From: an uncultured Pseudomonadota bacterium
GTDB taxonomy: Bacteria > Myxococcota_A > Polyangia > Fen-1088
Direction: 5' to 3'
NCBI GenBank assembly: GCA_963847705.1
Contig: CAWKBC010000020.1
Coordinates: forward strand, 1 to 12,140
DNA length: 12,140 bases
The position numbers were made by a program, and so were the translations under genes. This document shows, one piece after another, positions 13-12,140 of this stretch. The stretch's first letter is position 1; each line of letters starts with the position of its first letter. The notes under the pieces were generated by a model. The model did no database searches, was not told the DNA's origin, and saw only the letters and a program-made list of their open reading frames with translations.

Positions 13-1305
13 CTAGCGTCGATCCGGGCCGGTGGTGAGCGCGACTCGGTCCCGGCGGGCGACCGGCGCGGCGACGGCGGCCGACCACCGCGCGTGAAGC
101 ACCCAGGTCGGTAACACGGTGCCGACCGCGAGCAGGATCATCGTGGGCCCGCGCTCCAATCCGGGTGGCGCGCCGAAGAGGAGCGCGTACCAGAGGAGCA
201 GCAGCCCCGCGCTGATCGAGATCGAAAGCCGGCGCCCGGGCGCGTCGTCGATCCCCTCACCGATGCTGACCAGCGCATCGATCAACGCGGCGAAGGGGAC
301 CGCGACCACCAGATCGACGAGATAGTGATGCCCCAGCGCCAAGGTGGCGACGATCGTCCCCGCCAACCAGAGCGCGCAGCCGGCACGCAGCGCCGGCCCC
401 AACCGGCGCGCGTGCCAGTAGAGCAGCAGCGTCCAGCCGACGTGGAGAGATGGCATACAGTTGGTCGGGCCGACCGAATGCGGCAGCTCGACGAGCCGGG
501 AGGCACCGGGCAGATCGGTGGGACCCCAAGGATAGCGGGCGCCGAACAGCGGGCTCGGCCCCACCACGGGGTAAAGGTAGTAGAGCAGGTAGCCGGCGAC
601 CGCGGCAGCGAGGATGACGTTCAGGACCTCGCGGCGAGAGCCGCCGCGGCGCTTCTCGCCGGCGATGACCGCCGTCATCGCGAATGGCAAGAAGATGTAG
701 ACGAGAGCCAGGAGCCGAGCCAGGAGCGGGCGCACGGCGGTCACCCGCCCCAGCGCGAAGCTCGGTTGACCGAGCCCCGCATCCAACCTGAGCACCACCG
801 GATCCCACGCGCGCTGGGACACGACGGTCGTCAGATCCAGGGAGAGGTCCATGATCATGCCGAATGCCGGGAGGACCACGGCCCAGTGCAGCCAGGCCCA
901 GGCCTCCGGATCGCGCGGCGAAACGGCTGCGCGGAACGCGAGCGCCGACAAGCTGCCGAACCCCAAGGCCACCAGGACGCTCTGCCCGAAGGGCACCCCC
1001 TGAAAATGGAATGCCCCCAGCCACGCCCGGTGCACCCAGATGCCCCCCACCGCAACGACCAGGAAGACCCGCAGCTCCCGCGTACGTGGCCGGCTCGCCA
1101 GCAGGAAGATCAGCGTGCAGAGCAGGTGCAGCCCCTGGATGGGGTGCACCATCGCCAGCGATCCGGTCGAGCCTCGGGCGGCGCTCAGCGTGGCGACACC
1201 GACGGCCGCGGCGGCCCAACCGAGGATCCGCGCCTGGTGTGATCGCCACCAGGCGATCGGCGGCAGCGCTGTCGGAATGCTGGGACTGTATGCGCTGAGG
1301 CGCAA
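13..1305 (-). CDS. PAP2-superfamily integral membrane protein (PAP2_3 / AUR1-IPC synthase-like phosphotransferase or phosphatase), paralog A
   Basis: 430-aa hydrophobic ORF with many TM segments. Motifs: YYLYPVVGP, NCMPSLH (PAP2 C2 PSxH, about 442-462) and GHHYLVDL (C3 HxxxD, about 313-330). Colinear with the 1482-2702 paralog. The start is a TTG at 1305 and is uncertain; stop TAG at 13-15. Confidence 0.88.
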   Translation of the reverse strand: MRLSAYSPSIPTALPPIAWWRSHQARILGWAAAAVGVATLSAARGSTGSLAMVHPIQGLHLLCTLIFLLASRPRTRELRVFLVVAVGGIWVHRAWLGAFHFQGVPFGQSVLVALGFGSLSALAFRAAVSPRDPEAWAWLHWAVVLPAFGMIMDLSLDLTTVVSQRAWDPVVLRLDAGLGQPSFALGRVTAVRPLLARLLALVYIFLPFAMTAVIAGEKRRGGSRREVLNVILAAAVAGYLLYYLYPVVGPSPLFGARYPWGPTDLPGASRLVELPHSVGPTNCMPSLHVGWTLLLYWHARRLGPALRAGCALWLAGTIVATLALGHHYLVDLVVAVPFAALIDALVSIGEGIDDAPGRRLSISISAGLLLLWYALLFGAPPGLERGPTMILLAVGTVLPTWVLHARWSAAVAAPVARRDRVALTTGPDRR

Positions 1306-1319
1306 ACCAACCAGGGATG

Positions 1320-1332
1320 TTACTTCAGTCCG
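1320..1332. repeat. Left arm of 13-bp perfect inverted repeat (TTACTTCAGTCCG)
   Basis: Exact reverse complement of 1434-1446. On the minus strand it reads CGGACTGAAGTAA and continues into TAACAT (1322-1317), a TAnnnT -10-like hexamer upstream of paralog A. Confidence 0.9.
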
Positions 1333-1433
1333 CTCGAGCGCGCGCGCCCGCGCCGATCCGACCGGGCCGCGCGCAAGAGCCAGACCACCGCCGATCGCGG
1401 CGTCGGCCAGGCGGGGCGCGTGGATGCCGAGGA

Positions 1434-1446
1434 CGGACTGAAGTAA
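1434..1446. repeat. Right arm of 13-bp perfect inverted repeat (CGGACTGAAGTAA)
   Basis: Exact reverse complement of 1320-1332, with 101 bp between the arms. It continues into TAAGCT (1444-1449), a TAnnnT -10-like hexamer upstream of paralog B. Confidence 0.9.
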
Positions 1447-1481
1447 GCTGGACCGAAGCGGTCAACCTTGCGTCTCGCGAC

Positions 1482-2702
1482 TTGAACTCCGCGACCTCGA
1501 CCGAGCCGCAGTCGCGCCGGTGGTGGACCTCACAGGCCTGGCAGACGGCCGGCTGGGTGGTGCTCGGCCTGGCAGCTCCGGCGGTGGATGCGGCCAGGGG
1601 CTCTCCCGGATGGCTGGCGCTCGTCCATCCGATCCAGGCGACGTCGCTGTTCGCGTCGATCGTGTTCTTGTTGGTGAGCGGTCCGCGCCTTCGGGACCTG
1701 TTGCTGTTCCTGGCAGGCGCGGTGGGATTTGCGCTGGGACACCGCGCCTGGCTCCACCTGTTCTCTTTCCGCGGCGTCCAGCTCGAGCAGAGCGCGCTGG
1801 TGGCGGCCGGCCTGGCCAGCCTGGTGGCCCTCGCTGCGCGGGCCGCCGCTTCGGAACGGGGCAGCGAGCCGCGGGCGTGGTTTCATCTGGCGGTGATGCT
1901 GCCGGCCTTCGGGATGGCCATGGGGCTCGCCCTCGATCTCACGGTTCCGCTGCACGGCTGGGCCTGGGATCCGATCGTCCTGGCGCTGGACGCCGGGTTC
2001 GGTCAGCCGAGCTTTGTCGTCGGGCGCGTCGCGGCCGACCACCCCGCGCTGCTGACGGTGCTCGGCCTCGTCTATCTGTTTCTTCCGGTGATGATGGCGG
2101 CGATGCTGGTGCTGGAAAAACGCCGGTCCGTCGACCGCGAGCACGGGCTGCTGAGGGCGATTCTCCTGGCGGCGATCGTGGGCTACGCGCTCTATCAGGT
2201 CTATCCGGTGGTCGGACCGGGCCCGCTGTTCGGCGCCCGCTTTCCCCGTGGGATCGCTGGCCTGGCCGGGCCCCCGCAGCGTCTCGTCGACGTCACCGCC
2301 ATCGAGGACCCGCGCAATTGCATGCCGTCTTTGCACGTCGCCTGGGCGCTGCTCATCTACTGGCACGCGCGGACGCTGGGCACGCCGGCGCGGGCGGCCG
2401 GCGCCCTCTGGTTGGGGTCGACGATCCTCGCCACGCTGGCGATGGGCCAGCACTACTTCATCGATCTCGTGGTGGCCATGCCGTTCGCCGCGCTGATCGA
2501 TGCGCTCGCCGGCGCAGCGCCACACCGGACCTCGGCGCGCCGCCAGCTCATGGTGACGACGGGGGTGCTCCTGGCGATCTGGTACGCCATCCTCCTGCTG
2601 ACGCCGCCGGGCGCGTCAGGCGGGTTGCTGCTGCGGCTGCTCGCGCTGGCGACCGTGGCCGCCAGCTGGACGCTGCACGCGCGCTGGTGCGCCCAGCGCT
2701 GA
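1482..2702 (+). CDS. PAP2-superfamily integral membrane protein (PAP2_3 / AUR1-IPC synthase-like), paralog B
   Basis: Motifs: YQVYPVVGP, RNCMPSLH (about 2313-2336) and GQHYFIDL (about 2445-2468). Similarity to paralog A begins at the WW pair near 1521, so the in-frame TTG at 1482 is preferred over the ORF-track ATG at 1317, which would leave no promoter space. Start uncertain. Confidence 0.88.
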   Translation: MNSATSTEPQSRRWWTSQAWQTAGWVVLGLAAPAVDAARGSPGWLALVHPIQATSLFASIVFLLVSGPRLRDLLLFLAGAVGFALGHRAWLHLFSFRGVQLEQSALVAAGLASLVALAARAAASERGSEPRAWFHLAVMLPAFGMAMGLALDLTVPLHGWAWDPIVLALDAGFGQPSFVVGRVAADHPALLTVLGLVYLFLPVMMAAMLVLEKRRSVDREHGLLRAILLAAIVGYALYQVYPVVGPGPLFGARFPRGIAGLAGPPQRLVDVTAIEDPRNCMPSLHVAWALLIYWHARTLGTPARAAGALWLGSTILATLAMGQHYFIDLVVAMPFAALIDALAGAAPHRTSARRQLMVTTGVLLAIWYAILLLTPPGASGGLLLRLLALATVAASWTLHARWCAQR

Positions 2703-2712
2703 TGGCGCCGGC

Positions 2713-3651
2713 TCAGCGTTGCTCCCGCCCGGCTCCGTCGTCCGGTGGGGCGCGCCCTGACCTGGCGGCCCGCGCGGCGACCTCGCGCGCGATCTCGGCG
2801 TCCAGCTCGGCGCCCAGGATCACGATGTACGCGGACAGCAAGAACCAGGTGAGGATCGTGATGATCACTCCCAGCGAACCGTCGACCCGGTCGGTCTTGG
2901 CATAGGTCGACGCGAACCAGGAGAACAGCGCCGACCCCGCCAGCCAGAGGGCCGTGGCCGCCAGCGATCCGGGCGACACCCACCGCCTGGTCGACGGCAC
3001 GTGCGCCGGCCCGTGGTGGTAGGCGACGCTCAAGGCGAGAAGGACCATCACGGTCAGCATCGGCCAGCGACCCCAGCGGATCAGCTGCTCCGCGAGCTCC
3101 GACATCCGGAAGAACGACAGGACGATGGGAAAGACGATCACCGCCGCGATGGAGATGACGCCCGAGGCGATTGCGCCCATGGTGAAGAGAAACGCGGTGA
3201 GGTTCAGCCGGATGAACCCCCGCGTCTCTTTTTGACCGAAGGCCAGGCTGAGCCCGGTGATGAGCGCCTTCATTCCTTTGGTCGCTGCCCAGATCGCGGC
3301 CACGATACCGATCGCCGCTTCCAGGCTCAGAGTGCCGGTCGAACGGGCGGTGAGCTTCGACATCTGATCCTGGATCGCCGTCCGGATGTCGGGCGGAAGC
3401 GCGCCGGCGAAGGCGTCGATCTGGCGCGCGACGTCCTCGGGATTGGCCACCAACCCGTAGAGGGAGACCAGCGCGGCCAGGGCGGGGAACATGGAGAGGA
3501 ACGCGAAGAAGGCGACGCCGCCCGCGAGCACCGACGCCTGGTGGCGCTGGGTGGCGCTTCGCATCCGGTTGGCGATCCCGCGCCATCCTCCGGCGCGGAG
3601 CAGGGCCAAGATCCCCGGGTCGTCTCCGGGGGCGCTCCCTGGGCTCCTCAA
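2713..3651 (-). CDS. YihY/virulence factor BrkB family inner-membrane protein
   Basis: Typical family segments LAGGVAFFAFLSMFPAL, W..T..M..L..GL..AF....TR, PGSLAATALW, and GSLGVIITILTWFLLSAYIVILGAELDAE. The TTG start overlaps the upstream stop (TTGA, 3651-3648), with GGAGG at 3662-3658. Confidence 0.92.
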   Translation of the reverse strand: MRSPGSAPGDDPGILALLRAGGWRGIANRMRSATQRHQASVLAGGVAFFAFLSMFPALAALVSLYGLVANPEDVARQIDAFAGALPPDIRTAIQDQMSKLTARSTGTLSLEAAIGIVAAIWAATKGMKALITGLSLAFGQKETRGFIRLNLTAFLFTMGAIASGVISIAAVIVFPIVLSFFRMSELAEQLIRWGRWPMLTVMVLLALSVAYHHGPAHVPSTRRWVSPGSLAATALWLAGSALFSWFASTYAKTDRVDGSLGVIITILTWFLLSAYIVILGAELDAEIAREVAARAARSGRAPPDDGAGREQR

Positions 3652-5030
3652 AACGCCCCTCCGCCGGCGGCGCTGAACACGAACCCCAGGCCGACCGCGC
3701 CGTAATAGCCGGTGCGCGGTTGCGGGAAGATCTCCGCCAGCCCCGCGTGCAGGTTGAGGAGCACGTCACCGAGCTCGAGGTTCAGCTGGTACTCGAGGTG
3801 CACGATGGCGGCGAAGCCATCGCCGATCAGCCAGGAGCCGGTGGCGTTGAGCTGGTGGCTGAGCAGACCGGCGACGCTGAGCCCGAGCGGGACGAGCACG
3901 CCGGTGTCGATCACCGCCGCGCGCTTTCCCTCCGGCGCCTGGAGCGTTCCCCCCGCGCCCAGATAGGTCTGGGCGGGGACGAACGGGATCCCGAGCTCGA
4001 CCCCCCCCACCAGCGCCAGGTAGGGATCGCCGGGAGCCTTGAAGGCGCCCACCGACCAGAACGACGCGGTCGCCACCATGTCCTTGTAGGCGGGGCGGAT
4101 GGTGAGCTGCAGCGGCACCAGCTCGCGGTCGGCGATGGTCTTCTCCGCCGTATCTTTGACCTCTCTTTGGACGAAGACCTCCGCCACGTCGGCGAGCAGC
4201 TCGGGCGCCTCGATGGTGAAGGGGAGGATCTGCCAGACGGCGATCTCGTCCTCGGGCACGCGCGCGCCCAGCACGAAGGCGGTGAGGACGCCGCGGACGG
4301 AGAGGGTCGCCGCATCGATCAGGTGCCGCCGCCCCTCTTCGTTGGCCGGGTTGTCGAGGCGGCCGTCGCCGAACGTCACCCAGCGATGTCCTGCCCGATC
4401 GGTCGCCACGCGCCCGCGGGCGTTCCAGGCATCGTGAAACGACTTGGCGGCGGCCGCGCTCGAGGCCGCGCGGTTGAACCCCATGTGCCCGGCGGCGAAC
4501 GAGTCCTGCAGGTAGTGATCGGCGAAGGCGCTCTCGAAGAGCGCCAGCTGGAGCTGCTCGACGCTGCTCAGACCCTCTCCCGCGGCCCCCGCCAGCGCGT
4601 AGGCGATCGCCTGCTGGTGATACTCGGCCCACGAGCGGGTCGACATCGGATTGAAGTGGGCGCTGTTCTCCAGCGCCAGCAGGTAATAGGACTTCTTGCT
4701 GTGGAAACGCCAGGCGCCGGTCTGTGACAGGAACTCCGAGGGATGGCCGAGAAAGTCGCCGGCGATCGCGGTCGCGTCGCCATAGAGCTTGGCCAGGACC
4801 GGCAGGTTCTCTCCGCACACGCGCTCGAGGCGCAGCCTCATCCCGGCATCGGGCGTTCCGCGGGCGGCGACCGTCGCCCTCAGATCGGCGCAGGCGCGCA
4901 GGTAAGAGGTGCGACCGATCTCCTGATGCTCGACCGACGCCCAGGCGTGCGCCGTCGAGGCGGGGACGAGCGAGCCCAAGAACGCCCCCAGCGCGAAAAG
5001 CCCGCGACCCCTTCGCGAACGGCCCGTCAC
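3648..5030 (-). CDS. Secreted Zn-dependent phospholipase C-like protein (PLC/P1-nuclease fold) with probable C-terminal outer-membrane beta-barrel
   Basis: The GTG at 5030 gives a signal peptide ending AHA|W, then WASVEH, IAGDF, SAHF, FADHYLQDSFAAGH (4485-4526) and SFHDAWN. The last 140 aa or so form about 8 amphipathic, Gly/aromatic-rich strands and end in Phe. The ORF-track extension to 5207 looks non-coding. Confidence 0.72.
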   Translation of the reverse strand: MTGRSRRGRGLFALGAFLGSLVPASTAHAWASVEHQEIGRTSYLRACADLRATVAARGTPDAGMRLRLERVCGENLPVLAKLYGDATAIAGDFLGHPSEFLSQTGAWRFHSKKSYYLLALENSAHFNPMSTRSWAEYHQQAIAYALAGAAGEGLSSVEQLQLALFESAFADHYLQDSFAAGHMGFNRAASSAAAAKSFHDAWNARGRVATDRAGHRWVTFGDGRLDNPANEEGRRHLIDAATLSVRGVLTAFVLGARVPEDEIAVWQILPFTIEAPELLADVAEVFVQREVKDTAEKTIADRELVPLQLTIRPAYKDMVATASFWSVGAFKAPGDPYLALVGGVELGIPFVPAQTYLGAGGTLQAPEGKRAAVIDTGVLVPLGLSVAGLLSHQLNATGSWLIGDGFAAIVHLEYQLNLELGDVLLNLHAGLAEIFPQPRTGYYGAVGLGFVFSAAGGGAF

Positions 5031-5036
5031 CTGGGC

Positions 5037-5042
5037 AGTATG
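5037..5042 (-). promoter_or_regulatory. Putative -10 element CATACT of a leaderless promoter for the PLC-yihY operon
   Basis: On the minus strand CATACT lies 6 nt upstream of the GTG at 5030, and there is no Shine-Dalgarno sequence in front of that GTG. Confidence 0.35.
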
Positions 5043-5248
5043 GTTGTGCCAGGAACGTCTGCACCCGCGCCCGGAGAGTTTGCGAGAACGGCTGATCGCG
5101 CGCCGGCGGCGGTGGCGTCCGGGCGCGCCAGCGCCATATTGCCCCCGGGCCACCCTTCCCGGCGGCCTCCAGTCGCAGAAGCAGAAGCGAGGGCAGAGCC
5201 CTGACACCTTCGGCCAGACACCTCCCGGCGATCGCGGCGGCCGCGGTC

Positions 5249-6343
5249 GTGCTGCTCTCGATCCTCCTGGGGTTCCTGGCCCGGTGGCAGTTCCTGACCC
5301 GGCTCGCCCGCTACGCGGAGACGACGCCCTGGGCGGCGGACACCGCCGTCATCGCCTCGATGCGCTGGCCGTTGCCGACCTGGTGCCTCCTGGGCGGCGT
5401 CTACGCGGCGACGAAGATCGTGAGCATCCCGTCGCTGCTCGCCCGCTCCGTGGAGAAGGTGCTGCTCTCGGTGCTCATCGCCTCGATCAGCTTCTGGGTG
5501 GCCAGCCTCCTCGGCCGGCTGCTCGAGCTGCGCGGCGTCGGCGCGGGCCGCGTCCGGGCGACCTCCGGCACCGGCGTGGTCCGGACCGTGGTCCGGGTCG
5601 CCGTGCTGGCCATCGGGACGCTGGTCCTGCTCAGCACCCTCGGGATCTCGGTGGCGCCGCTGCTCACCACGATGGGCCTGGGCGGTCTGGCCGTCGCCTT
5701 CGGGCTCCGAGAGACGCTGGCCAACCTGTTTTCAGGGATGAACTTCACGCTGGCCGGAAACATCAACGTCGGCGACTTCGTGAAGCTGGGCGGGGGACAA
5801 GACGGTCAAGGCGGTTTCGAAGGGTACATCGAGGACATCCAGTGGCGGGTGACGCGCGTGAGGACGCTGCTCGACACGATCATCGTGATCCCCAACAGCC
5901 AGCTGGCCGACAGCATCGTGACCAACTACCACCAGCCCTCGCCTGCCGCCCTCATCCTCGTTCCGGTGGCTGTGCACGCGGCCAGTGACCTAGACCACGT
6001 CGAGCGCGTCACCTGTCGGGTCGCGCGTCAGATCATGGAGACGATCCCGGGCGGGGTCCCGGGGTTCGAGCCGTCGGTGCGCTACAAGGCGTTCGGCGAT
6101 TCGAGCATCGACTTCTGGGTCATCCTGCGGGTGCGGGCCTACCCCGATCTCCTTCTGGTCAGGCACACGTTCATCAAGGCGCTGGTCCGCGCCTTCGCGG
6201 CGGAGGGGATCGTCATCCCCTTCCCGGTCCGCGCGCTCAACCTGTCGCAAGAGGACGCCGCCGGTGCGATCGCCGACCGAGGAGGCTCCTCGGTTGGCTC
6301 GCCTCCCGACTCAGCTGCGCCGCCGACGTTCGGCGAACATTGA
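5249..6343 (+). CDS. mscS: Small-conductance mechanosensitive channel (MscS family)
   Basis: Pore helix LLTTMGLGGLAVAFGLRETLANLFSG, beta-domain INVGDFVKL...EGYIEDIQWRVTRVRT...IVIPNSQL, then FGDSSIDF and C-terminal GIVIPFPVR. Extra N-terminal TMs are present. The true start may be upstream (CTG at 5201). Confidence 0.93.
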   Translation: MLLSILLGFLARWQFLTRLARYAETTPWAADTAVIASMRWPLPTWCLLGGVYAATKIVSIPSLLARSVEKVLLSVLIASISFWVASLLGRLLELRGVGAGRVRATSGTGVVRTVVRVAVLAIGTLVLLSTLGISVAPLLTTMGLGGLAVAFGLRETLANLFSGMNFTLAGNINVGDFVKLGGGQDGQGGFEGYIEDIQWRVTRVRTLLDTIIVIPNSQLADSIVTNYHQPSPAALILVPVAVHAASDLDHVERVTCRVARQIMETIPGGVPGFEPSVRYKAFGDSSIDFWVILRVRAYPDLLLVRHTFIKALVRAFAAEGIVIPFPVRALNLSQEDAAGAIADRGGSSVGSPPDSAAPPTFGEH

Positions 6344-6368
6344 GCCGGGGAATCAGTCGATCCCTTCA

Positions 6369-6396
6369 TTGCCAACTTCCAGGCCAGCCGCACACT
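6369..6396 (+). promoter_or_regulatory. Putative sigma70-type promoter for the phasin-like gene (TTGCCA-N16-CACACT)
   Basis: TTGCCA at 6369-6374 and CACACT at 6391-6396 in a relatively AT-rich intergenic stretch 40 nt upstream of ATG 6436. Confidence 0.35.
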
Positions 6397-6435
6397 GACG
6401 CCCAACGAGAAAATCACTCACGTGATGGAGGGCCA

Positions 6436-6831
6436 ATGTTTGATCTGCTGTTCGAATCGTTCCGCAAGGCATCCGAGTCGTCGATGCAGGTGCCGATGGA
6501 CATCATCAAGAACCTGACGCAGCAGCTGCCCAGCGCCTCCGGGGCCGGGATGGAATGGTCCAAGACCTTTCAGAAGCGCTGGGCCGAGCTCGCCGTCGAC
6601 AGCTTGAACAAGCACCGGGAATCGCTGGACTCGACGTACCGGTCCGGGATTCAGCTCATCGAGCAGACGTTCCGGGTCTCCGACGTCAAGTCGTCCGCCG
6701 ACTACCAGAAGATCGTCGAACAGCTCTGGCAGAAGCTGCTCGACGTGTTCAAGGAGCAGTCCGAAGCTCAGGTTCGCGAGCTGCAGACCTGGGCGGCGAA
6801 GTCGTTCGAGATGCAGCGGGCCTCCGCCTAG
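6436..6831 (+). CDS. Small amphipathic all-helical protein, phasin-like (granule-associated protein candidate)
   Basis: 131 aa from ATG 6436, with RBS GGAGGG at 6427-6432. Rich in Q/E/K/S with no Cys. The segment FRVSDVKSSADYQKIVEQLWQKLLDVFKEQSEAQVRE resembles the phasin 'vks..e...lq' helix break. The CDS is certain; the function is inferred. Confidence 0.6.
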   Translation: MFDLLFESFRKASESSMQVPMDIIKNLTQQLPSASGAGMEWSKTFQKRWAELAVDSLNKHRESLDSTYRSGIQLIEQTFRVSDVKSSADYQKIVEQLWQKLLDVFKEQSEAQVRELQTWAAKSFEMQRASA

Positions 6832-6853
6832 CGGTCACGGGCCGGTCACGGGC
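6832..6853. repeat. Perfect 11-bp tandem repeat (CGGTCACGGGC)x2
   Basis: 6832-6842 and 6843-6853 are identical and start directly after the TAG of the phasin-like gene. Confidence 0.85.
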
Positions 6854-6928
6854 AAATGACGGCGCGCGGGGAGATGACGCTGGCGTTCACGCGCGCCTGC
6901 TTCAGGAGTCAGACGGAAGGAGACCGCA

Positions 6929-7936
6929 GTGGAAAACGGAGCTCGTAGCCGGGTGGCGATCGCCTGCCAGGGGGGAGGGAGCCACACCGCCTTCACGGCG
7001 GGCGTCCTCGAGGGGCTGTTGACGCGCATCCCGGACGACATCGAGATCGTCGCGCTCTCGGGCACCTCGGGCGGGGCGATCTGCGCGACGCTGGCCTGGG
7101 ACGGCCTCCTCCGAAACGATCCGGCGCAGGCGGTGCGCAAGCTGCGGGGGTTCTGGGACGCGATGTCGGCCCGCGAACCCTTGGACAAGCTGGCCAATCA
7201 GTCGCTGATGAGCATGATGAGCCTCCGCGATCTGATGGTCTTGCCGGAGGTGAGCCCGTACAACCTGCCGCAGTGGGGCGAGGACAAGTTTCGCGCCATG
7301 CTGAACGACTACTTCAACTTCGAGGAGCTGCGGGCGCTCGCCCGGCGGCCGGGGGCGCCAGCCATCAAGATCGGGGCGGTGGAGGTGCTGAGCGGCCACT
7401 TCGAGCTCTTCGAGGGCGACGAGCTCTGTGCCGAGTGTCTGCTGGCCTCGGCGGCCATCCCGGAGATGTTCCGCGCGGTCAACGTGCCGGGGCGGGGGGT
7501 GTTCTGGGACGGTCTCTTCTCGCAGAACCCGCCCATTCACAACCTGGTGGAGCACCACATCGACGAGCTGTGGGTGATTCAGATCAACTCCAGCACCTGC
7601 GCCCGCGTCCCCACCGAGACCCACGAGATTCTCGATCGCCGGAACGCGCTCGCTGGAAATCTGTCGATGGAGCAGGAGCTGAAATTCATCGACACGATCA
7701 ACCGCGCCCTCGCCGAGCGGAAGATCCACGACTCCAAGTACCGACGGATTCGCGTCGCGCGCATTGCTCTGGATCGCGAGCTCAACTACCGGTCGAAGCT
7801 CGATCGCAGCCCCGAGCTGCTCTCCGAGCTCCGGGACTACGGGATCATGAAGTGGAAACGATTCGTCAAGGAGCGCACCGCCTGGATGGACGACACGCGC
7901 GCGCTCCGGATGGAATCGCAGCAGATGTCGGTCTGA
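6929..7936 (+). CDS. Patatin-like phospholipase/esterase (possible intracellular PHA depolymerase type)
   Basis: Oxyanion loop ACQGGGSHTAF, nucleophile elbow GTSGG (7061-7075), LASAAIP, and catalytic Asp in WDGLFSQNPP (7508). GTG start with AAGGAG at 6917-6922. Confidence 0.93.
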   Translation: MENGARSRVAIACQGGGSHTAFTAGVLEGLLTRIPDDIEIVALSGTSGGAICATLAWDGLLRNDPAQAVRKLRGFWDAMSAREPLDKLANQSLMSMMSLRDLMVLPEVSPYNLPQWGEDKFRAMLNDYFNFEELRALARRPGAPAIKIGAVEVLSGHFELFEGDELCAECLLASAAIPEMFRAVNVPGRGVFWDGLFSQNPPIHNLVEHHIDELWVIQINSSTCARVPTETHEILDRRNALAGNLSMEQELKFIDTINRALAERKIHDSKYRRIRVARIALDRELNYRSKLDRSPELLSELRDYGIMKWKRFVKERTAWMDDTRALRMESQQMSV

Positions 7937-7965
7937 GGCGGAGAACAGGGGAAAAGAGGGGGGCG

Positions 7966-8952
7966 ATGGGCATTCGAATTTCGGCCGTCGGGGGCTACGT
8001 TCCGAGCACGGTGGTCACCAACGAGGAACTGGCGCGGCGGGTCGACACCTCCGACGAGTGGATCGTCGCCAAGACCGGGATCCGGGAGCGTCGGTTCGCG
8101 GGGCCCGACGAGGCGCCCAGCGACATGGGGTGCGCGGCCGCCGAGCGCTGCCTGCGGAATGCGGCCGTCGACAGATCGGCGGTCGATCTCATCGTGGTGG
8201 CCTGCGCGACGCCCGACCAATCCCAACCGGCGGTGGCCTGCCTGATCCAGGAGAAGCTGGGGATCTCGGAGGGGAACTGCCCGGCCTTCGACGTGAACTC
8301 GGTCTGCTCCGGCTTCGTCTTCGCGCTCAGCGTGGCGCAGGGGATGATGCTCGCCGATCCCAAGGCCTACGCCAACGTGCTGGTCATCGGTGTCGATGCG
8401 TTCTCCAAGATCATGAACTGGAGCGACCGGCGCACCTGCGTCTTCTTCGGCGACGGGGCGGGGGCCGTTCTCCTCACGCACAGCGAGGACGACCGGCGGA
8501 TCCATTTCAAGCTGGGGAGTGACGGGCGCGGCAGCAAGACCATCGCGGTGCCGGCCGGCGGCACGCGCCTGCCGGTCGACGCGAACGTGCTCGAGAAGCG
8601 ATTGAACACCTTCACCATGGACGGCCCCAAGGTCTGGGAGTTCGCGGTGAGCTCCGTCCCGCGCGTCATCCGGGGCCTCCTGGCCGAGCACGATCTGGCG
8701 CCGGCGGACCTCGACCTCCTGGTCCTGCACCAGAGCAACCTCCGGATGATCGAGGCGATGATGAAGTCGCTCGAGCTTCCGCCCGACCGCTCGGTCAGCA
8801 CCATCGAAACCTACGGAAACACCGCGGCTGCCAGCATCCCCCTCACGCTGGAGAGGGCCTGGACCACCGGACGACTGCGGCCCGGAGCCAGGGTGTCGCT
8901 GTGCGGATTCGGCGGCGGCCTCTCCTGGGGCGCGGCGCTGCTCGAGTGGTGA
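7966..8952 (+). CDS. fabH: Beta-ketoacyl-ACP synthase III (FabH/KAS III family condensing enzyme)
   Basis: 328 aa from ATG 7966 behind a purine-rich RBS. Motifs DTSDEWI..KTGIRERR, catalytic Cys in DVNSVCSGF (8305), FGDGAGA, His in LHQSN, Asn in YGNTAAASIP, and GFGGGLSWG. Confidence 0.93.
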   Translation: MGIRISAVGGYVPSTVVTNEELARRVDTSDEWIVAKTGIRERRFAGPDEAPSDMGCAAAERCLRNAAVDRSAVDLIVVACATPDQSQPAVACLIQEKLGISEGNCPAFDVNSVCSGFVFALSVAQGMMLADPKAYANVLVIGVDAFSKIMNWSDRRTCVFFGDGAGAVLLTHSEDDRRIHFKLGSDGRGSKTIAVPAGGTRLPVDANVLEKRLNTFTMDGPKVWEFAVSSVPRVIRGLLAEHDLAPADLDLLVLHQSNLRMIEAMMKSLELPPDRSVSTIETYGNTAAASIPLTLERAWTTGRLRPGARVSLCGFGGGLSWGAALLEW

Positions 8953-9082: not shown

Positions 9083-11455
9083 TTAGGCGCGGGCCGTGGC
9101 TTCGCTGCCCGCCGCCGAACCTTCGGGTCCGGCGACGACGACCGGCACGGTCTCCAGCGTCAGCTCCAGCGCCTCGTCGATCTTCTTGACGAAGACGATG
9201 TCCATCTCGGCGCGGACGGTCTCCGGGATGTCGATGACGTCCTTGCGGTTGCGGTCGGGGAGCACCACCCGCTTGATGCCCGAGCGGTGGGCCGCCAGCA
9301 CCTTCTCCTTGATGCCGCCGACCGGCAGCACGGTGCCGCGCAGGGTGATCTCGCCGGTCATCGCCACGTCGCCGCGCACGCGCCGCCCGGTCAGGAGCGA
9401 CACCAACGCCACGGTGATGGCGACACCCGCCGACGGACCGTCCTTGGAGACAGCCCCCTGCGGGACGTGCAGGTGGATGTCCGTCCGCTCGAAGTCGGTG
9501 GTGATGCCGAGATCCTCCACGTGGGTGCGGACCCAGGAGAGGCCCGCGCGCGCCGACTCTTTCATCACGTCGCCGAGCTGTCCGGTGAGGATCAGGGTCC
9601 CCTTGCCGGGCATGGCAGACACCTCGATGAAGAGGATGTCGCCGCCGGTCGGTGTCCAGGCCAGCCCCGTCGAGACGCCCGGGATCTCCGTGCGCTCCGC
9701 AGCTTCGGAGTAGTACTGCTGCGGCCCCAGGATGTCGGAGATGGTCGCCGGCACCAGGTTGGGATCGTAGGGCTGGTTCTCCGCCACCTTCACCGCGACG
9801 TTGCGGATGACGCTGGCGATCTCGCGCTCCAGGTTGCGCACCCCCGCCTCGCGCGTGTACTGCTCGATGACGGTGTTGAGCGCCTCGTCGGAGAGCTTGA
9901 TCCGCTCCTCGTCCAGCCCGTGCTCGGCGACCTGCTTCGGCACCAGGTGGCGCTTGGCGATCTCCAGCTTCTCCTCGCGGGTGTAGCCAGGGATCTCCAG
10001 CACCTCCATGCGGTCGAGCAGCGCCGGCGGGATGGGGTCGAGCATGTTCGCCGTGGCGATGAAGATGACGTCGCTGAGGTCGAAGTTCACCTCCAGGTAG
10101 TGGTCGGAGAAGGTGGAGTTCTGCTCCGGGTCCAGCACCTCGAGGAGCGCGGCCGAGGGGTCGCCGCGGAAATCGGCGCCCAGCTTGTCGATCTCGTCGA
10201 GCATGAAGACCGGGTTGCGTGACCCGACCCGCCGCATCCCCTGGATGATTCGTCCGGGGAGCGCGCCGATGTAGGTCCGCCGGTGACCACGCACCTCGGC
10301 CTCGTCGCGCACGCCGCCCAAGGAGACGCGGATGAACTCACGTCCGAGCGAACGGGCGATCGACTTGCCGAGCGACGTCTTGCCGACGCCGGGAGGTCCG
10401 GCCAGACAGAGGATGGGCCCCTTTTTCCCGGGCGCCAGCTTGCGCACGGCCAGGTACTCGAGGATGCGCTTCTTCACCTTCTTGAGGTCGTAGTGATCGC
10501 TGTCGAGGATCTCCCGGGCCTGGTCGAGGTCGAGCCGGTCCTCGGTCCGCTTCGACCAGGGGAGCTCGACCAGCCACTCGAGGTAGGTCCGCTGGACCGT
10601 GTACTCCGCCGACGACTGGGCCATCTGCTTGAGACGATCGAGCTGCTTGCGCGCGGTCTTCTCGACCTCGGCCGGCATCTCGGCCGCCTTGATCTTCTCC
10701 TCGAACGCGTCGAGGTCGCTGGCGTCCTCGCCCTCGCCGAGCTCGTCTTGGATTGCCTTCAGCTTCTGGCGGAGCACCGCCTCGCGCTGGTGCTTGGAGA
10801 ACTCCTCGCGCACCTGCGAGTCGATCTTCTGCTTCACCTTGATCAGCTCCACCTTGCGCTGGAGCAAAACCAACAGGCGCCGCAGCCGCTCCGCCACATC
10901 GATCTCCACCAGCAGCGACGCGCGCTCCTCGGGCGAGAGATCGACGGTCGCCGCGACGATGTCGCCCAGACGGCCCGGATCCTTGTGCTGGTCGAGCACC
11001 TGCGCCGTCTCGTCCGGAATGTCGGGCGAGATGGCGATCAGCTGCTTGGCCACGTCGTAGACGGCCATGCCGAGGCCGTCGATCTCGATCGGGTCCTTGC
11101 GGATCTCGACCAGCGGCTCGTACGACGCGAGCAGGTAGGGTTTCTCCTGGACGAAGCCGGTCACGCGCCGCCGCTCGGTGCCGCGCAGAACCGCGGTCAC
11201 CCGGTTCTCGGCCGCCTTGACGATGCGAACGACCTCGCCTTCGACACAGATGGTGTAGAGATCGGCGCCTGCCGGCTCCTCGATGTCGGCGTCTTTCTGG
11301 GTACCGACGAGGACGCGTGCGCCCTTGCCGCCCAGCGCCTCGATGAGGCGCAGGGAGCTGGCGCGACCGATCTCGACCGGCATCACTGCTCCGGGGAACA
11401 GCACCAGGTTGCGGAGCGAGAGGAGCGGGAGGGTCTTTGTTGTGTCAGCGCTCAT
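9083..11455 (-). CDS. lon: ATP-dependent Lon protease (endopeptidase La, LonA)
   Basis: 790 aa. N-domain LPLLSLRNLVLFPG, Walker A GPPGVGKTS, RGHRRTYIGALPG, Walker B FMLDEIDK, catalytic Ser in KDGPSAG and Lys in VGGIKEK. RBS GAGGT lies upstream of the ATG. Confidence 0.98.
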   Translation of the reverse strand: MSADTTKTLPLLSLRNLVLFPGAVMPVEIGRASSLRLIEALGGKGARVLVGTQKDADIEEPAGADLYTICVEGEVVRIVKAAENRVTAVLRGTERRRVTGFVQEKPYLLASYEPLVEIRKDPIEIDGLGMAVYDVAKQLIAISPDIPDETAQVLDQHKDPGRLGDIVAATVDLSPEERASLLVEIDVAERLRRLLVLLQRKVELIKVKQKIDSQVREEFSKHQREAVLRQKLKAIQDELGEGEDASDLDAFEEKIKAAEMPAEVEKTARKQLDRLKQMAQSSAEYTVQRTYLEWLVELPWSKRTEDRLDLDQAREILDSDHYDLKKVKKRILEYLAVRKLAPGKKGPILCLAGPPGVGKTSLGKSIARSLGREFIRVSLGGVRDEAEVRGHRRTYIGALPGRIIQGMRRVGSRNPVFMLDEIDKLGADFRGDPSAALLEVLDPEQNSTFSDHYLEVNFDLSDVIFIATANMLDPIPPALLDRMEVLEIPGYTREEKLEIAKRHLVPKQVAEHGLDEERIKLSDEALNTVIEQYTREAGVRNLEREIASVIRNVAVKVAENQPYDPNLVPATISDILGPQQYYSEAAERTEIPGVSTGLAWTPTGGDILFIEVSAMPGKGTLILTGQLGDVMKESARAGLSWVRTHVEDLGITTDFERTDIHLHVPQGAVSKDGPSAGVAITVALVSLLTGRRVRGDVAMTGEITLRGTVLPVGGIKEKVLAAHRSGIKRVVLPDRNRKDVIDIPETVRAEMDIVFVKKIDEALELTLETVPVVVAGPEGSAAGSEATARA

Positions 11456-11546: not shown

Positions 11547-12140
11547 TCAAAATCGGCGCACCTCTCCTCCGGCGGTTCGGCGAGCGAGCTCTTCGATCAG
11601 CCTCCGAGTCTCGGCGTCGTCGGGGCTGACCTTGGGCGCCATGATCTCGACGCGGCAGAGCTGATCGCCGCGCGAGCCGTCGGCGTTCTTGACACCGCGA
11701 CCGCGCAAGCGCAGCCGGGCGCCGCTCGACGTGCCGGGCGGCACCGTGACGGTGACACGCCCCTCGACCGTGGGGACCTCGATCTTGGCGCCCAGCGCCG
11801 CTTCGGCGAAGGTCACCGGCAGGTCGAGCTCGATGTCCGACTCGCGCCGCCGCAAGAAGGGATCCGGGCGGACCTCGATGTCGAGGTAGAGATCGCCGGG
11901 CGTGCCGTTGCGCGCGGGGGCCGGGGCACCCTGTCCGGGCAGACGGAGCCGCCCGCCCTCTTCGACGCCTGGTGGGATGCTCACCTCGACGGCGGTGCCG
12001 CTGCCGGTGCGGACCGTGCGCTTGCCGCCCAGCGCCGACTCGATGAAGCTGACCTCCATCCGGCCTTCGACGTCGCTCCCCCGCGCGGGGCGCGTCCGCT
12101 GCCGTCGCGGATCGAAGCCGCCCCCCGGAGCGCCGCCGCC
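11547..12140 (-). CDS. DnaJ class II / CbpA-like chaperone, C-terminal part (5' end lies outside the window)
   Basis: The frame is open to the window edge: GGGAPGGGFDP...RGSDVEGRMEVSFIESALG, IPPGVEEG..LRLPGQG, GDLYL, EAALGAKIEVPTVEG, PPGTSSG..LRLRGRG. The G/F-rich region joins the C-domain with no CxxCxGxG zinc finger. Confidence 0.92.
   Translation of the reverse strand, partial: GGGAPGGGFDPRRQRTRPARGSDVEGRMEVSFIESALGGKRTVRTGSGTAVEVSIPPGVEEGGRLRLPGQGAPAPARNGTPGDLYLDIEVRPDPFLRRRESDIELDLPVTFAEAALGAKIEVPTVEGRVTVTVPPGTSSGARLRLRGRGVKNADGSRGDQLCRVEIMAPKVSPDDAETRRLIEELARRTAGGEVRRF

What the first reader, a model, noticed from the sequence alone, without database searches (positions are those of the whole stretch)
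3648..5030. Zn-dependent phospholipase C domain fused to a probable 8-stranded outer-membrane beta-barrel
Seen: the signal peptide ends AHA, which exposes Trp as residue 1 (4941-4943), followed by His6, GDF, HF, FADHYLQDSFAAGH and HDAWN. Then about 8 alternating-pattern strands follow (MVATASFWSVG, YLALVGGVELG, QTYLGAGGTL, AVIDTGVLVP, SHQLNATGSWL, AIVHLEYQLNLE, VLLNLHAGLAEI, GYYGAVGLGFVF), ending in a terminal Phe. Known: a free N-terminal Trp is a Zn ligand in the tri-zinc PLC/P1-nuclease fold. As I recall it, F(A/T)xH(Y/F)(Y/L)xDxF(A/S)xGH is the signature of the Legionella PlcA/B/C-type PLC family, and this protein matches it at every position. Inference: an outer-membrane-anchored PLC. A 140-aa barrel is too small for a classical 12-stranded autotransporter, so it would be either a periplasm-facing membrane-remodelling enzyme or a non-canonical surface display. 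I do not know a described protein with this architecture.
Basis: partly seen in the sequence, partly recalled or inferred. Interest (0 to 1): 0.72.

Follow-up and report, generated by a model that had tools for sequence, protein, structure and literature searches.

The report
Outer-membrane-anchored zinc phospholipase C family
This gene joins an intact zinc phospholipase-C-type catalytic domain to a domain predicted to be a small outer-membrane barrel; it belongs to a widespread, unnamed bacterial protein family and likely cuts lipids on the inner face of the outer membrane, a role I found described for no phospholipase C.

Summary
The gene (3648-5030, minus strand) encodes a predicted Sec signal peptide, a helical domain starting at Trp1 and an 8-stranded barrel (AlphaFold pLDDT 96, pTM 0.92). 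The helical domain's best structural matches are zinc PLCs (Z 10.7, 9.3). It is homologous to the PlcA-like Pseudomonas/fungal phospholipases (HHalign 99.8%) but lies outside their clade. Nine putative metal ligands are intact in 136 of 136 rows that cover them. The barrel has the membrane pattern (aliphatic face opposite a Gly/polar face), and both termini sit on the short-turn side, so the enzyme most likely faces the periplasm. One correction: the terminal Phe is not the beta-signal; GLGFVF ends at 423 and is followed by a conserved GGG tail. The family is large (772 hits at 50% clustering, some PlcA-like), has no Pfam or NCBIfam model and includes Polyangia/Myxococcota; a distant clade with similar C-terminal strands occurs in Bacteroidota. 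Best reading: a barrel-tethered PLC acting on the outer membrane's inner leaflet, analogous to PlpD. Activity, substrate and location are untested. No paper on it turned up, and the scan had no earlier look-alike by sequence.

The parts
4944..5030 (-). Predicted Sec/SPase I signal peptide (29 aa from GTG 5030, ends A-H-A)
   Evidence: A-x-A-like site in 124 of 127 relatives; no Tat motif or lipobox
4941..4943 (-). Mature Trp1, predicted metal ligand through its free amine
   Evidence: W in 124, F in 6, Y in 6 of 145 rows; role of W1 in PC-PLC from PMC10576769 passages
4224..4943 (-). Helical zinc PLC/P1-nuclease-fold catalytic domain (mature residues 1-240) with putative ligands W1, H6, D63, H96, H143, D147, H153, H170, D193
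   Evidence: (1olp Z 10.7, rmsd 3.2, 160 aligned; 1ah7 Z 9.3, rmsd 3.9, 162 aligned)
4485..4526 (-). PlcA-type signature FADHYLQDSFAAGH (residues 140-153), followed by family-specific MGFNR
4092..4223 (-). Linker (residues 241-284) with short helices, one amphipathic-looking (LLADVAEVF)
   Evidence: median linker 37 aa, range 13-130
3675..4091 (-). Predicted 8-stranded outer-membrane beta-barrel (residues 285-423)
   Evidence: (6x9z Z 14.8, rmsd 1.9, 115 aligned; OprF Z 14.4, 2.5, 123; NspA Z 13.3, 3.1, 135)
3675..3692 (-). Internal beta-signal-like motif G418-L-G-F-V-F423
   Evidence: matches GXX-phi-X-phi (PMC13721041 passage) in the query and 79 of 145 rows
3648..3674 (-). Conserved C-terminal tail SAAGGGAF plus stop; the stop overlaps the TTG start of the downstream yihY gene
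   Evidence: G427/G428/G429 in 131/129/124 of 145 rows; overlap

Best explanation
The protein joins a PlcA-related zinc phosphodiesterase domain to a predicted 8-stranded outer-membrane barrel, and likely acts as a phospholipase C held under the outer membrane, cutting head groups from inner-leaflet lipids. Steps: (1) Sec export; signal peptidase cleavage after A-H-A would expose Trp1, whose amine would complete the metal site, so no propeptide step would be needed (inferred). (2) BAM would recognise the GLGFVF motif and insert the barrel in the usual orientation, with both termini and the short turns periplasmic (inferred from topology). (3) The catalytic domain, linker and GGG tail would therefore sit in the periplasm; the high whole-model pTM suggests they pack rigidly under the barrel (predicted). 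(4) A metal cluster (W1/H6/D147; D63/H96/H143/D147; H153/H170 plus probably D193) would hydrolyse the phosphodiester, with D63 as the catalytic Asp and E5/F64 as the head-group pocket, releasing diacylglycerol or ceramide (inferred by analogy; ligand geometry not seen). (5) The role would be outer-membrane lipid remodelling or turnover, as proposed for PlpD (inferred, weakest step). Shown: sequence, conservation, homology. Predicted: fold, barrel. Inferred: location, orientation, substrate, role.
For: Fold: the catalytic-domain model's top three matches among 48,161 chains are PLCs (Z 10.7, 9.3, 8.9), then S1/P1 nucleases (7.8, 7.5). Homology: HHalign against fungal/bacterial proteins, several named phosphatidylcholine-hydrolysing PLC, gives 99.83%, E 7.7e-30. 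My catalytic-domain HMM hits 120 of 120 and 117 of 117 PlcA-like proteins, including P. protegens and P. chlororaphis 'phospholipase'. PLC rather than nuclease: E5 (137/145) and an aromatic or His after D63 (133/144) mirror the BcPC-PLC choline-pocket residues E4 and Y56 (PMC10576769 passage); the nuclease Lys/Arg at Asp+3 (S1 Lys68; PMC5201275) is Arg in 3 of 144. Membrane barrel: one strand face averages Kyte-Doolittle +2.0 with 6% Gly (0 charged of 50 in the query); the other averages -0.5 with 22% Gly. Natural 8-strand TMBs have 6.3% surface Gly and soluble barrels very rarely do (bioRxiv 2020.10.22.346965 passage). The top fold matches are mostly outer-membrane barrels. Orientation: the loops opposite the termini carry about 2.1-2.3 charges each, the turns beside the termini 0.5-0.7. 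The host has 7 Omp85 matches over the cut-off, and no PldA or MlaA was found in its 85%-complete genome. Precedent: PlpD's lipase domain stays periplasmic and its loss raises phospholipid levels (PMC11116518 abstract and Discussion).
Against: No activity, localisation or expression data. The fold Z-scores for the helical domain (8.9-10.7) lie in the range the tool flags as inconclusive for helical bundles, and Foldseek gave no match at E<=0.001. The position four after H170, an acidic ligand in PC-PLC and P1 (recalled), is Asn or Ser here (acid in 0 of 145), so the third metal site differs. Soluble designed barrels also score high (8ah9 Z 13.4, 6d0t Z 12.7). Strand faces were assigned from sequence parity, not coordinates. 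A propeptide-free PLC against the cell's own membrane would need a control mechanism that is not identified. The gene is patchy (16 of 24 genomes of its genus have a match, some partial), so it is not core envelope machinery. Gene neighbours give no support for a substrate.
Confidence: 0.58

Rival explanations
1. Same location and orientation, but the substrate is not a membrane glycerophospholipid: the barrel only tethers a periplasmic phosphodiesterase that scavenges soluble phosphodiesters or nucleotides, or trims phosphoryl groups from LPS or other envelope polymers.
For: The fold is shared with S1/P1 nucleases (Z 7.8, 7.5). The loop after the motif differs from PlcA-like enzymes (GHxGFNR in 128/145 vs 0/120). 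Substrate cannot be read from the fold.
Against: The closest sequence relatives are named phospholipases. The nuclease Lys/Arg at Asp+3 is missing and PLC-like pocket residues are present. A rigid membrane tether suits a lipid substrate.
Confidence: 0.2
2. The catalytic domain is displayed on the cell surface or released, and attacks foreign membranes (a non-canonical autotransporter).
For: Characterised relatives (Legionella PlcA/PlcB, P. fluorescens PLC) are secreted (PMC6617341 and PMC2613904 passages). The linker is 44 residues. Hop proteins show that 8-stranded barrels can display domains (PMC13721041 passage).
Against: Hop passengers sit in extracellular loop 1, whereas loop 1 here has a median of 9 and at most 16 residues. 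All 8 strands follow the enzyme. The inner face is filled with conserved polar side chains. The termini lie on the short-turn side.
Confidence: 0.1
3. It is a vesicle-borne weapon: kept quiet in the producer, loaded in outer-membrane vesicles, and active on the inner leaflet of a prey or competitor's outer membrane after fusion.
For: Many named carriers are Myxococcota. The gene is patchy and occurs as tandem paralogues in L010, L082 and L084. It would explain tolerance of a propeptide-free PLC.
Against: No immunity-like or secretion gene recurs beside it. Distant relatives occur in a gut commensal (P. distasonis). No direct evidence.
Confidence: 0.07
4. The C-terminal barrel is a soluble lipid-binding module (lipocalin/avidin/YceI-like) of a secreted or periplasmic PLC, playing the part that the C2-like domain plays in alpha-toxin.
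For: Soluble 8-stranded barrels appear in the fold list (Z 13.4, 12.7, 12.1, 10.1). The chain does not end in a classical terminal beta-signal, and Pfam has no OMP match.
Against: A soluble barrel would expose the face with 22% Gly and no Lys/Arg in the query, which is very rare in soluble barrels. An internal beta-signal is present. All named Atlas leads for the barrel but one are outer-membrane families, though all score below 0.9.
Confidence: 0.05

Closest known systems
PlcA-like zinc metallophospholipase C family (Legionella PlcA/PlcB/PlcC, Pseudomonas fluorescens-group PLC, fungal PC-hydrolysing PLC)
   Same: Homologous catalytic core (HHalign 99.83%) with the same ordered motifs: aromatic-x3/4-EH, YG..GD, N..HF, HxxxDxFxxGH, HD, WxxxGD.
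   Different: PlcA-like proteins form their own clade (support 99), have GHxRxPR and HDED, carry a long insertion and an N-terminal extension (motif at median residue 71), and lack the barrel (0 of 237). The characterised ones are secreted. No Legionella sequence was compared directly.
PlpD/FplA (patatin-like Omp85 proteins)
   Same: An N-terminal phospholipase held in the periplasm by a C-terminal outer-membrane barrel, proposed to act on inner-leaflet lipids (PMC11116518).
   Different: PlpD is a Ser-Asp phospholipase A1 on a 16-stranded Omp85 barrel with POTRA, and a dimer. This is a zinc PLC-type domain on an 8-stranded barrel with no POTRA. No homology is implied.
B. cereus / Listeria PC-PLC and Clostridium alpha-toxin catalytic domain
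   Same: Best structural matches (Z 8.9-10.7), with N-terminal Trp and a catalytic Asp followed by an aromatic.
   Different: 12-15% identity, no Pfam match, Asn instead of an acid at His170+4, no propeptide, membrane barrel instead of no domain or a C2-like domain.
OmpA/OprF/NspA-type 8-stranded outer-membrane barrels
   Same: 8 strands, membrane-type face pattern, internal beta-signal followed by more sequence, as in OmpA.
   Different: The large periplasmic domain is N-terminal and an enzyme, the loops are very short, identity is about 10%, and no Pfam OMP model matches.

Membership tests
PLC/P1-nuclease zinc superfamily | All-helical PLC/P1 fold | tested here: met
   6 of the top 8 VIA-align rows are PLCs or S1/P1 nucleases; best Z 10.7, rmsd 3.2, 160 aligned. 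Moderate Z for a helical domain; Foldseek E>0.001.
PLC/P1-nuclease zinc superfamily | Mature N-terminal Trp plus conserved His/Asp ligands in order | tested here: met
   Nine positions intact in 136 of 136 covering rows; cleavage site pattern in 124 of 127.
PLC/P1-nuclease zinc superfamily | Ligands cluster in 3D and bind three metals | not testable with these tools
   Present in the query, 96 of 145 family rows, and 106 of 120 and 112 of 117 PlcA-like proteins.
PlcA-like PLC family | GHxRxPR after the signature and HDED (seen here in the PlcA-like sets) | tested here: not met
   GHxR[TV]PR in 0 of 145 vs 114 of 120 and 85 of 117; GHxGFNR-type in 128 of 145 vs 0 of 237.
PlcA-like PLC family | Falls inside the PlcA-like clade | tested here: not met
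   18 PlcA-like rows form one side of a branch with SH-aLRT 99; the query is outside (quick tree, midpoint root).
PlcA-like PLC family | Direct similarity to Legionella PlcA/B/C | not tested
   No Legionella sequence appeared among the listed hits. The link rests on names and on PMC6617341 passages (PlcB closest to a P. fluorescens PLC, 38%).
PlcA-like PLC family | Zn-dependent PLC activity | not testable with these tools
   Needs an assay.
Gram-positive PC-PLC / alpha-toxin family | Acidic ligand four residues after the last His (recalled numbering) and a Pfam family match | tested here: not met
   Acid in 0 of 145 at position 174; no Pfam match above cut-off.
S1/P1 nuclease family | Lys/Arg three residues after the catalytic Asp (S1 Asp65/Lys68) | tested here: not met
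   G66 in the query; Arg in 3 of 144, Lys not among the eight commonest residues (PMC5201275).
8-stranded outer-membrane beta-barrel (OmpA-type) | Eight antiparallel strands closing a barrel | tested here: met
8-stranded outer-membrane beta-barrel (OmpA-type) | Hydrophobic outer face, Gly/polar inner face | tested here: met
   faces assigned by sequence parity, not coordinates
8-stranded outer-membrane beta-barrel (OmpA-type) | Beta-signal GXX-phi-X-phi at the end of the last strand | tested here: met
   G418-F423 in the query; 79 of 145 rows; internal, followed by a tail
8-stranded outer-membrane beta-barrel (OmpA-type) | BAM-dependent outer-membrane residence | not testable with these tools
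   The host has Omp85 genes; location needs experiment.
Classical (type Va) autotransporter | 12-stranded barrel holding the linker | tested here: not met
   8 strands; no Pfam autotransporter match.
Hop-type 8-stranded display proteins | Passenger inserted in extracellular loop 1 | tested here: not met
   Loop 1 has 1-16 residues; the enzyme precedes strand 1.
PlpD-type PL-Omp85 | Patatin domain, POTRA and 16-stranded barrel | tested here: not met

The most novel reading that the evidence does not exclude
This is the first phospholipase C of the Gram-negative outer membrane: a third class of barrel-borne lipid-remodelling enzyme beside PldA and PlpD that makes diacylglycerol or ceramide in the inner leaflet, is gated by its own GGG tail instead of a propeptide, and is spread across Myxococcota, Bacteroidota (including gut commensals) and other diderms. 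The secreted PlcA-like enzymes would be a derived offshoot that lost the barrel.
Probability: 0.3. Interest if true: 0.8.

Novelty: new variant of a known kind. Interest (0 to 1): 0.6.

Why it matters
Outer-membrane lipid turnover is understood mainly through PldA, Mla and, recently, PlpD. A widespread barrel-tethered PLC would add a new chemistry (head-group removal) at the inner leaflet, in a host where PldA and MlaA were not found. It would also be a rare case of a whole enzyme hung N-terminally under a minimal 8-stranded barrel, and it would place the PlcA-like enzymes within a larger group of apparently membrane-anchored relatives. The family has no Pfam or NCBIfam model and named members are 'hypothetical protein', so defining it annotates hundreds of proteins. 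A distant relative in cultured Parabacteroides distasonis (WP_211744399.1) makes it testable.

Tried and rejected
Sequence libraries gave nothing: Pfam for the query (only DUF7393 at E 0.069, below cut-off) and for 79 relatives (one chance hit); NCBIfam; PDB sequences by phmmer and two profiles. Foldseek on the catalytic domain alone gave no match at E<=0.001. The Atlas returned only unnamed clusters for the whole protein (0.96-0.98; recognition score under the tool's threshold) and leads below 0.9 for the barrel. Gene context was rejected as a guide. Patatin (10 of 22 loci), the 163-aa gene (9), yihY (9) and PAP2_3 (3) recur only among closer relatives and are absent from L016-L021. In L014 and L015 the cluster includes PhaC and/or PHB depolymerase, so it looks like polyhydroxyalkanoate-gene synteny. 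No neighbour recurs across the distant clades. A PagL-like catalytic barrel was considered from the Atlas leads, but no Pfam PagL match exists. Tat export and lipoprotein anchoring were rejected (0 of 127 each). No RNA holder was listed, which is no evidence. No sigma-70-like promoter was found. Aurass et al. 2013, the primary PlcA/B/C paper, is not held. hmmalign could not place the N-terminal motifs of PlcA-like proteins across their insertion; they were read by pattern in 14 proteins and 4 loci. My barrel HMM hit only 5 of 23 held-out long proteins; the misses include 2 PlcA-like proteins, apparent frameshifts and divergent C-termini. Literature searches for the architecture found nothing on it: (0 papers; 10 listed; 20 of 32 listed; 'PlcA-like' absent from all listed; 6 listed), judged from titles and abstract starts. 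Subscription papers, CDD and InterPro were not searched.
Full report
Observation. The frame 3648-5207 on the minus strand is open. Most relatives start about 15-35 residues before the same Trp. In alignment A2 (145 mostly full-length proteins chosen from the 271 held at that point; fragments and near-duplicates left out), 124 of 127 testable rows have an A-x-A-like site before residue 1 and none has a Tat motif or lipobox (my pattern test). The mature chain has 431 residues.

Family. A word-indexed search gave 188 hits among 7,999 candidates; the 120 listed are 56-100% identical, none has a Pfam domain, and named ones are 'hypothetical protein'. The unindexed search gave 772 representatives at E<=0.001, 169 at 1e-10 and 74 at 1e-30; the weaker ones include PlcA-like proteins. 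Most of the 22 genome loci are titled Polyangia, Myxococcales/Myxococcota, Kofleriaceae or uncultured proteobacterium. Atlas clusters at 0.96-0.98 are unnamed, with Bacteroidota, Myxococcota and Ignavibacteriota as the commonest known phyla (a lead only). Within the host genus 16 of 24 genomes have a match, some partial. In a phylum sample 59 of 401 match, but only 3 over most of the model's length, so the gene is accessory. The contig fits its genome in GC and tetranucleotide content. In 78 metagenome loci, 48 match both my catalytic and barrel HMMs; the rest are cut off, frameshifted or distant. Pfam, NCBIfam and PDB sequence searches found nothing.

Structure. AlphaFold on A2 gives pLDDT 96.4 and pTM 0.92: helices at 3-239, a linker, and eight strands at 285-427. 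For the barrel, VIA-align lists a designed transmembrane barrel (Z 14.8, rmsd 1.9, 115 aligned), OprF (14.4, 2.5, 123), a Thermus OMP (13.5), NspA (13.3) and OmpW (12.8), but also soluble designed barrels (13.4, 12.7). Foldseek's only match at E<=0.001 is NspA. The catalytic domain folded alone (pLDDT 96.8) matches alpha-toxin (Z 10.7, rmsd 3.2, 160 aligned), B. cereus PLC (9.3, 3.9, 162) and Listeria PLC (8.9), then S1/P1 nucleases (7.8, 7.5). These are moderate scores for a helical domain, and Foldseek found nothing significant, so the assignment also rests on motifs and profiles.

Catalytic domain. W/F/Y1, H6, D63, H96, H143, D147, H153, H170 and D193 are intact in 136 of 136 rows covering them. 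In Listeria PC-PLC the main chain of W1 binds a metal, W1F is tolerated, an added N-terminal residue abolishes activity, D55 is catalytic, and the B. cereus choline pocket is E4, Y56 and F66 (PMC10576769, passages). Here E5 is kept in 137 of 145, and the residue after D63 is aromatic or His in 133 of 144. The S1-nuclease Lys at Asp+3 (PMC5201275, passages) is not conserved. One departure: four residues after H170, where PC-PLC and P1 have an acidic ligand (recalled), there is Asn or Ser (acid in 0 of 145). D193, invariant here and present in 213 of 237 PlcA-like rows (23 gaps), is the likely substitute (inference). Following a weak hit I retrieved fungal and bacterial proteins, several named phosphatidylcholine-hydrolysing PLC, and Pseudomonas 'phospholipase' proteins. 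HHalign gives 99.83%, E 7.7e-30 over 160 columns. My catalytic HMM hits all 237 of them and my barrel HMM none. PMC6617341 (passages) ties Legionella PlcA/PlcB to P. fluorescens and eukaryotic PC-PLCs, and PMC7025538 (passages) calls PlcC a zinc metallophospholipase C. The primary paper was not held, so the signature is recalled and no Legionella sequence was compared. The two groups differ after the signature (GHxGFNR vs GHxRxPR). In a quick tree of 58 cores (one row dropped for lacking the motif; midpoint root; long branches) the 18 PlcA-like rows form a clade with support 99 that excludes the query, with three divergent signal-peptide proteins and the Bacteroidota-type rows nearest to it. 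Seven rows I labelled 'barrel' there were not confirmed by the barrel HMM. Without an outgroup the direction of evolution is open.

Membrane or soluble barrel. Splitting each strand by parity (from sequence, not coordinates), one face averages Kyte-Doolittle +2.0 with 25% Leu and 6% Gly, and has 0 charged residues of 50 in the query. The other face averages -0.5 with 22% Gly and conserved Glu, Gln, Asn, His and Ser, and has no Lys or Arg in the query. Natural 8-strand transmembrane barrels have a polar core with glycine kinks and 6.3% surface Gly, while surface Gly is very rare in soluble barrels (bioRxiv 2020.10.22.346965, passages). A soluble reading would put the 22%-Gly face in water. The last strand carries GLGFVF, matching the beta-signal GXX-phi-X-phi (PMC13721041, passages) in 79 of 145 rows. 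It is followed by a tail with GGG in 120 of 145; the final residue is Phe in only 56. The host has 7 Omp85 matches over the cut-off; PldA and MlaA were not found in the 85%-complete genome.

Orientation. With eight strands, both termini lie on the side of turns 2-3, 4-5 and 6-7. These have median lengths 5, 5 and 2 and 0.5-0.7 charges each. The opposite loops have medians 9, 8, 3 and 8 and 2.1-2.3 charges. Short turns mark the periplasmic side. The enzyme precedes strand 1, so it would be periplasmic unless the linker crossed the membrane, for which an 8-stranded barrel lined with side chains has no room (established knowledge plus inference). Hop proteins display domains from loop 1, which here has at most 16 residues. 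PlpD is the precedent: its lipase domain stays periplasmic and its loss raises phospholipid levels (PMC11116518, abstract and Discussion).

Context. The stop codon overlaps the start of yihY. Patatin, a 163-aa gene and yihY recur in 9-10 of 22 loci and two PAP2_3 genes in 3, none in L016-L021. The cluster includes PhaC and/or PHB depolymerase in L014 and L015. I read this as synteny among kin. Distant relatives L115-L130 have a signal peptide, the same metal motifs and C-terminal amphipathic strands ending in classical beta-signal-like residues, with no Pfam match in the four scanned; they were not folded. Catalytic-domain matches also lie in 'hypothetical protein' genes of Hymenobacter yonginensis and Parabacteroides distasonis.

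Mechanism and odds. Most likely (0.58) it is a Sec-exported, BAM-inserted PLC that becomes competent when signal peptidase exposes Trp1 and acts on inner-leaflet lipids. Rivals: periplasm-facing with a non-lipid substrate (0.2), surface display (0.1), vesicle-borne weapon (0.07), soluble barrel (0.05). The need for control without a propeptide is unexplained; the GGG tail is a candidate.

Novelty. Searches listed no paper on this architecture (judged from titles and abstract starts; subscription journals, CDD, InterPro and supplements not seen). Also read as passages, with little bearing: PMC10149971, PMC2613904, PMC10017501. The scan held no look-alike by sequence; word search returned only peptidase-Omp85 fusions. 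The parts are of known kinds and the strategy has a precedent in PlpD, but the combination and the family appear undescribed: a new variant of a known kind, interest 0.6.

Noticed in passing
window 13-1305 (-) and 1317-2702 (+): Two divergent PAP2_3 (Aur1/IPC-synthase-like) membrane proteins lie back to back (Pfam E 3e-21 and 2e-21); one has a faint NCBIfam match to phosphoinositol dihydroceramide synthase (E 0.32). Linked to the PLC-barrel gene only in close kin (3 of 22 loci).
   Followed up: partly
window 6340-8952 (+): A 163-aa gene without a family, a patatin and FabH form a run; in L014 and L015 the same genes lie with PhaC and/or PHB depolymerase, suggesting a polyhydroxyalkanoate cluster with a patatin-type depolymerase and a PhaE/phasin-like protein (inference).
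   Followed up: partly
L010:130-2963, L082:1274-4127, L084:1322-4175: Tandem pairs of divergent PLC-barrel paralogues (about 37% identical to the query in L010), each with intact motifs in the L082 example.
   Followed up: partly
L115-L130; L132:5281-7122 (P. distasonis WP_211744399.1); L131:5302-7077 (Hymenobacter WP_270129398.1): A second clade (520-635 aa; several from gut metagenomes) with signal peptide, PLC-type motifs and C-terminal strands ending in beta-signal-like residues; in P. distasonis it follows a DUF5686 gene. Not folded.
   Followed up: partly
L026-L052: Many genomes of the host's phylum encode long proteins (about 460-1,000+ residue frames) with a PlcA-type HxxxDxFxxGH core and other C-terminal regions, some ending in beta-strand-like sequence: further unnamed architectures.
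   Followed up: no
P0457, P0444, P0484 (Pseudomonas phospholipases): The Phe equivalent to Trp1 lies at residue 72-74 right after an Arg, suggesting these secreted enzymes need proteolytic removal of a pro-region, unlike the barrel family.
   Followed up: no
L010, L013: These records are titled as an archaeon and a Chitinophagaceae bacterium but carry genes 62-90% identical to the window's, and L013 is frameshifted; possibly mis-binned or chimeric contigs.
   Followed up: no
window 5249-6343 (+), 9083-11455 (-), 11547-12140 (-), 2713-3651 (-): Ordinary genes: MscS channel, Lon protease, DnaJ C-terminal part (cut by the contig end) and YihY.
   Followed up: no
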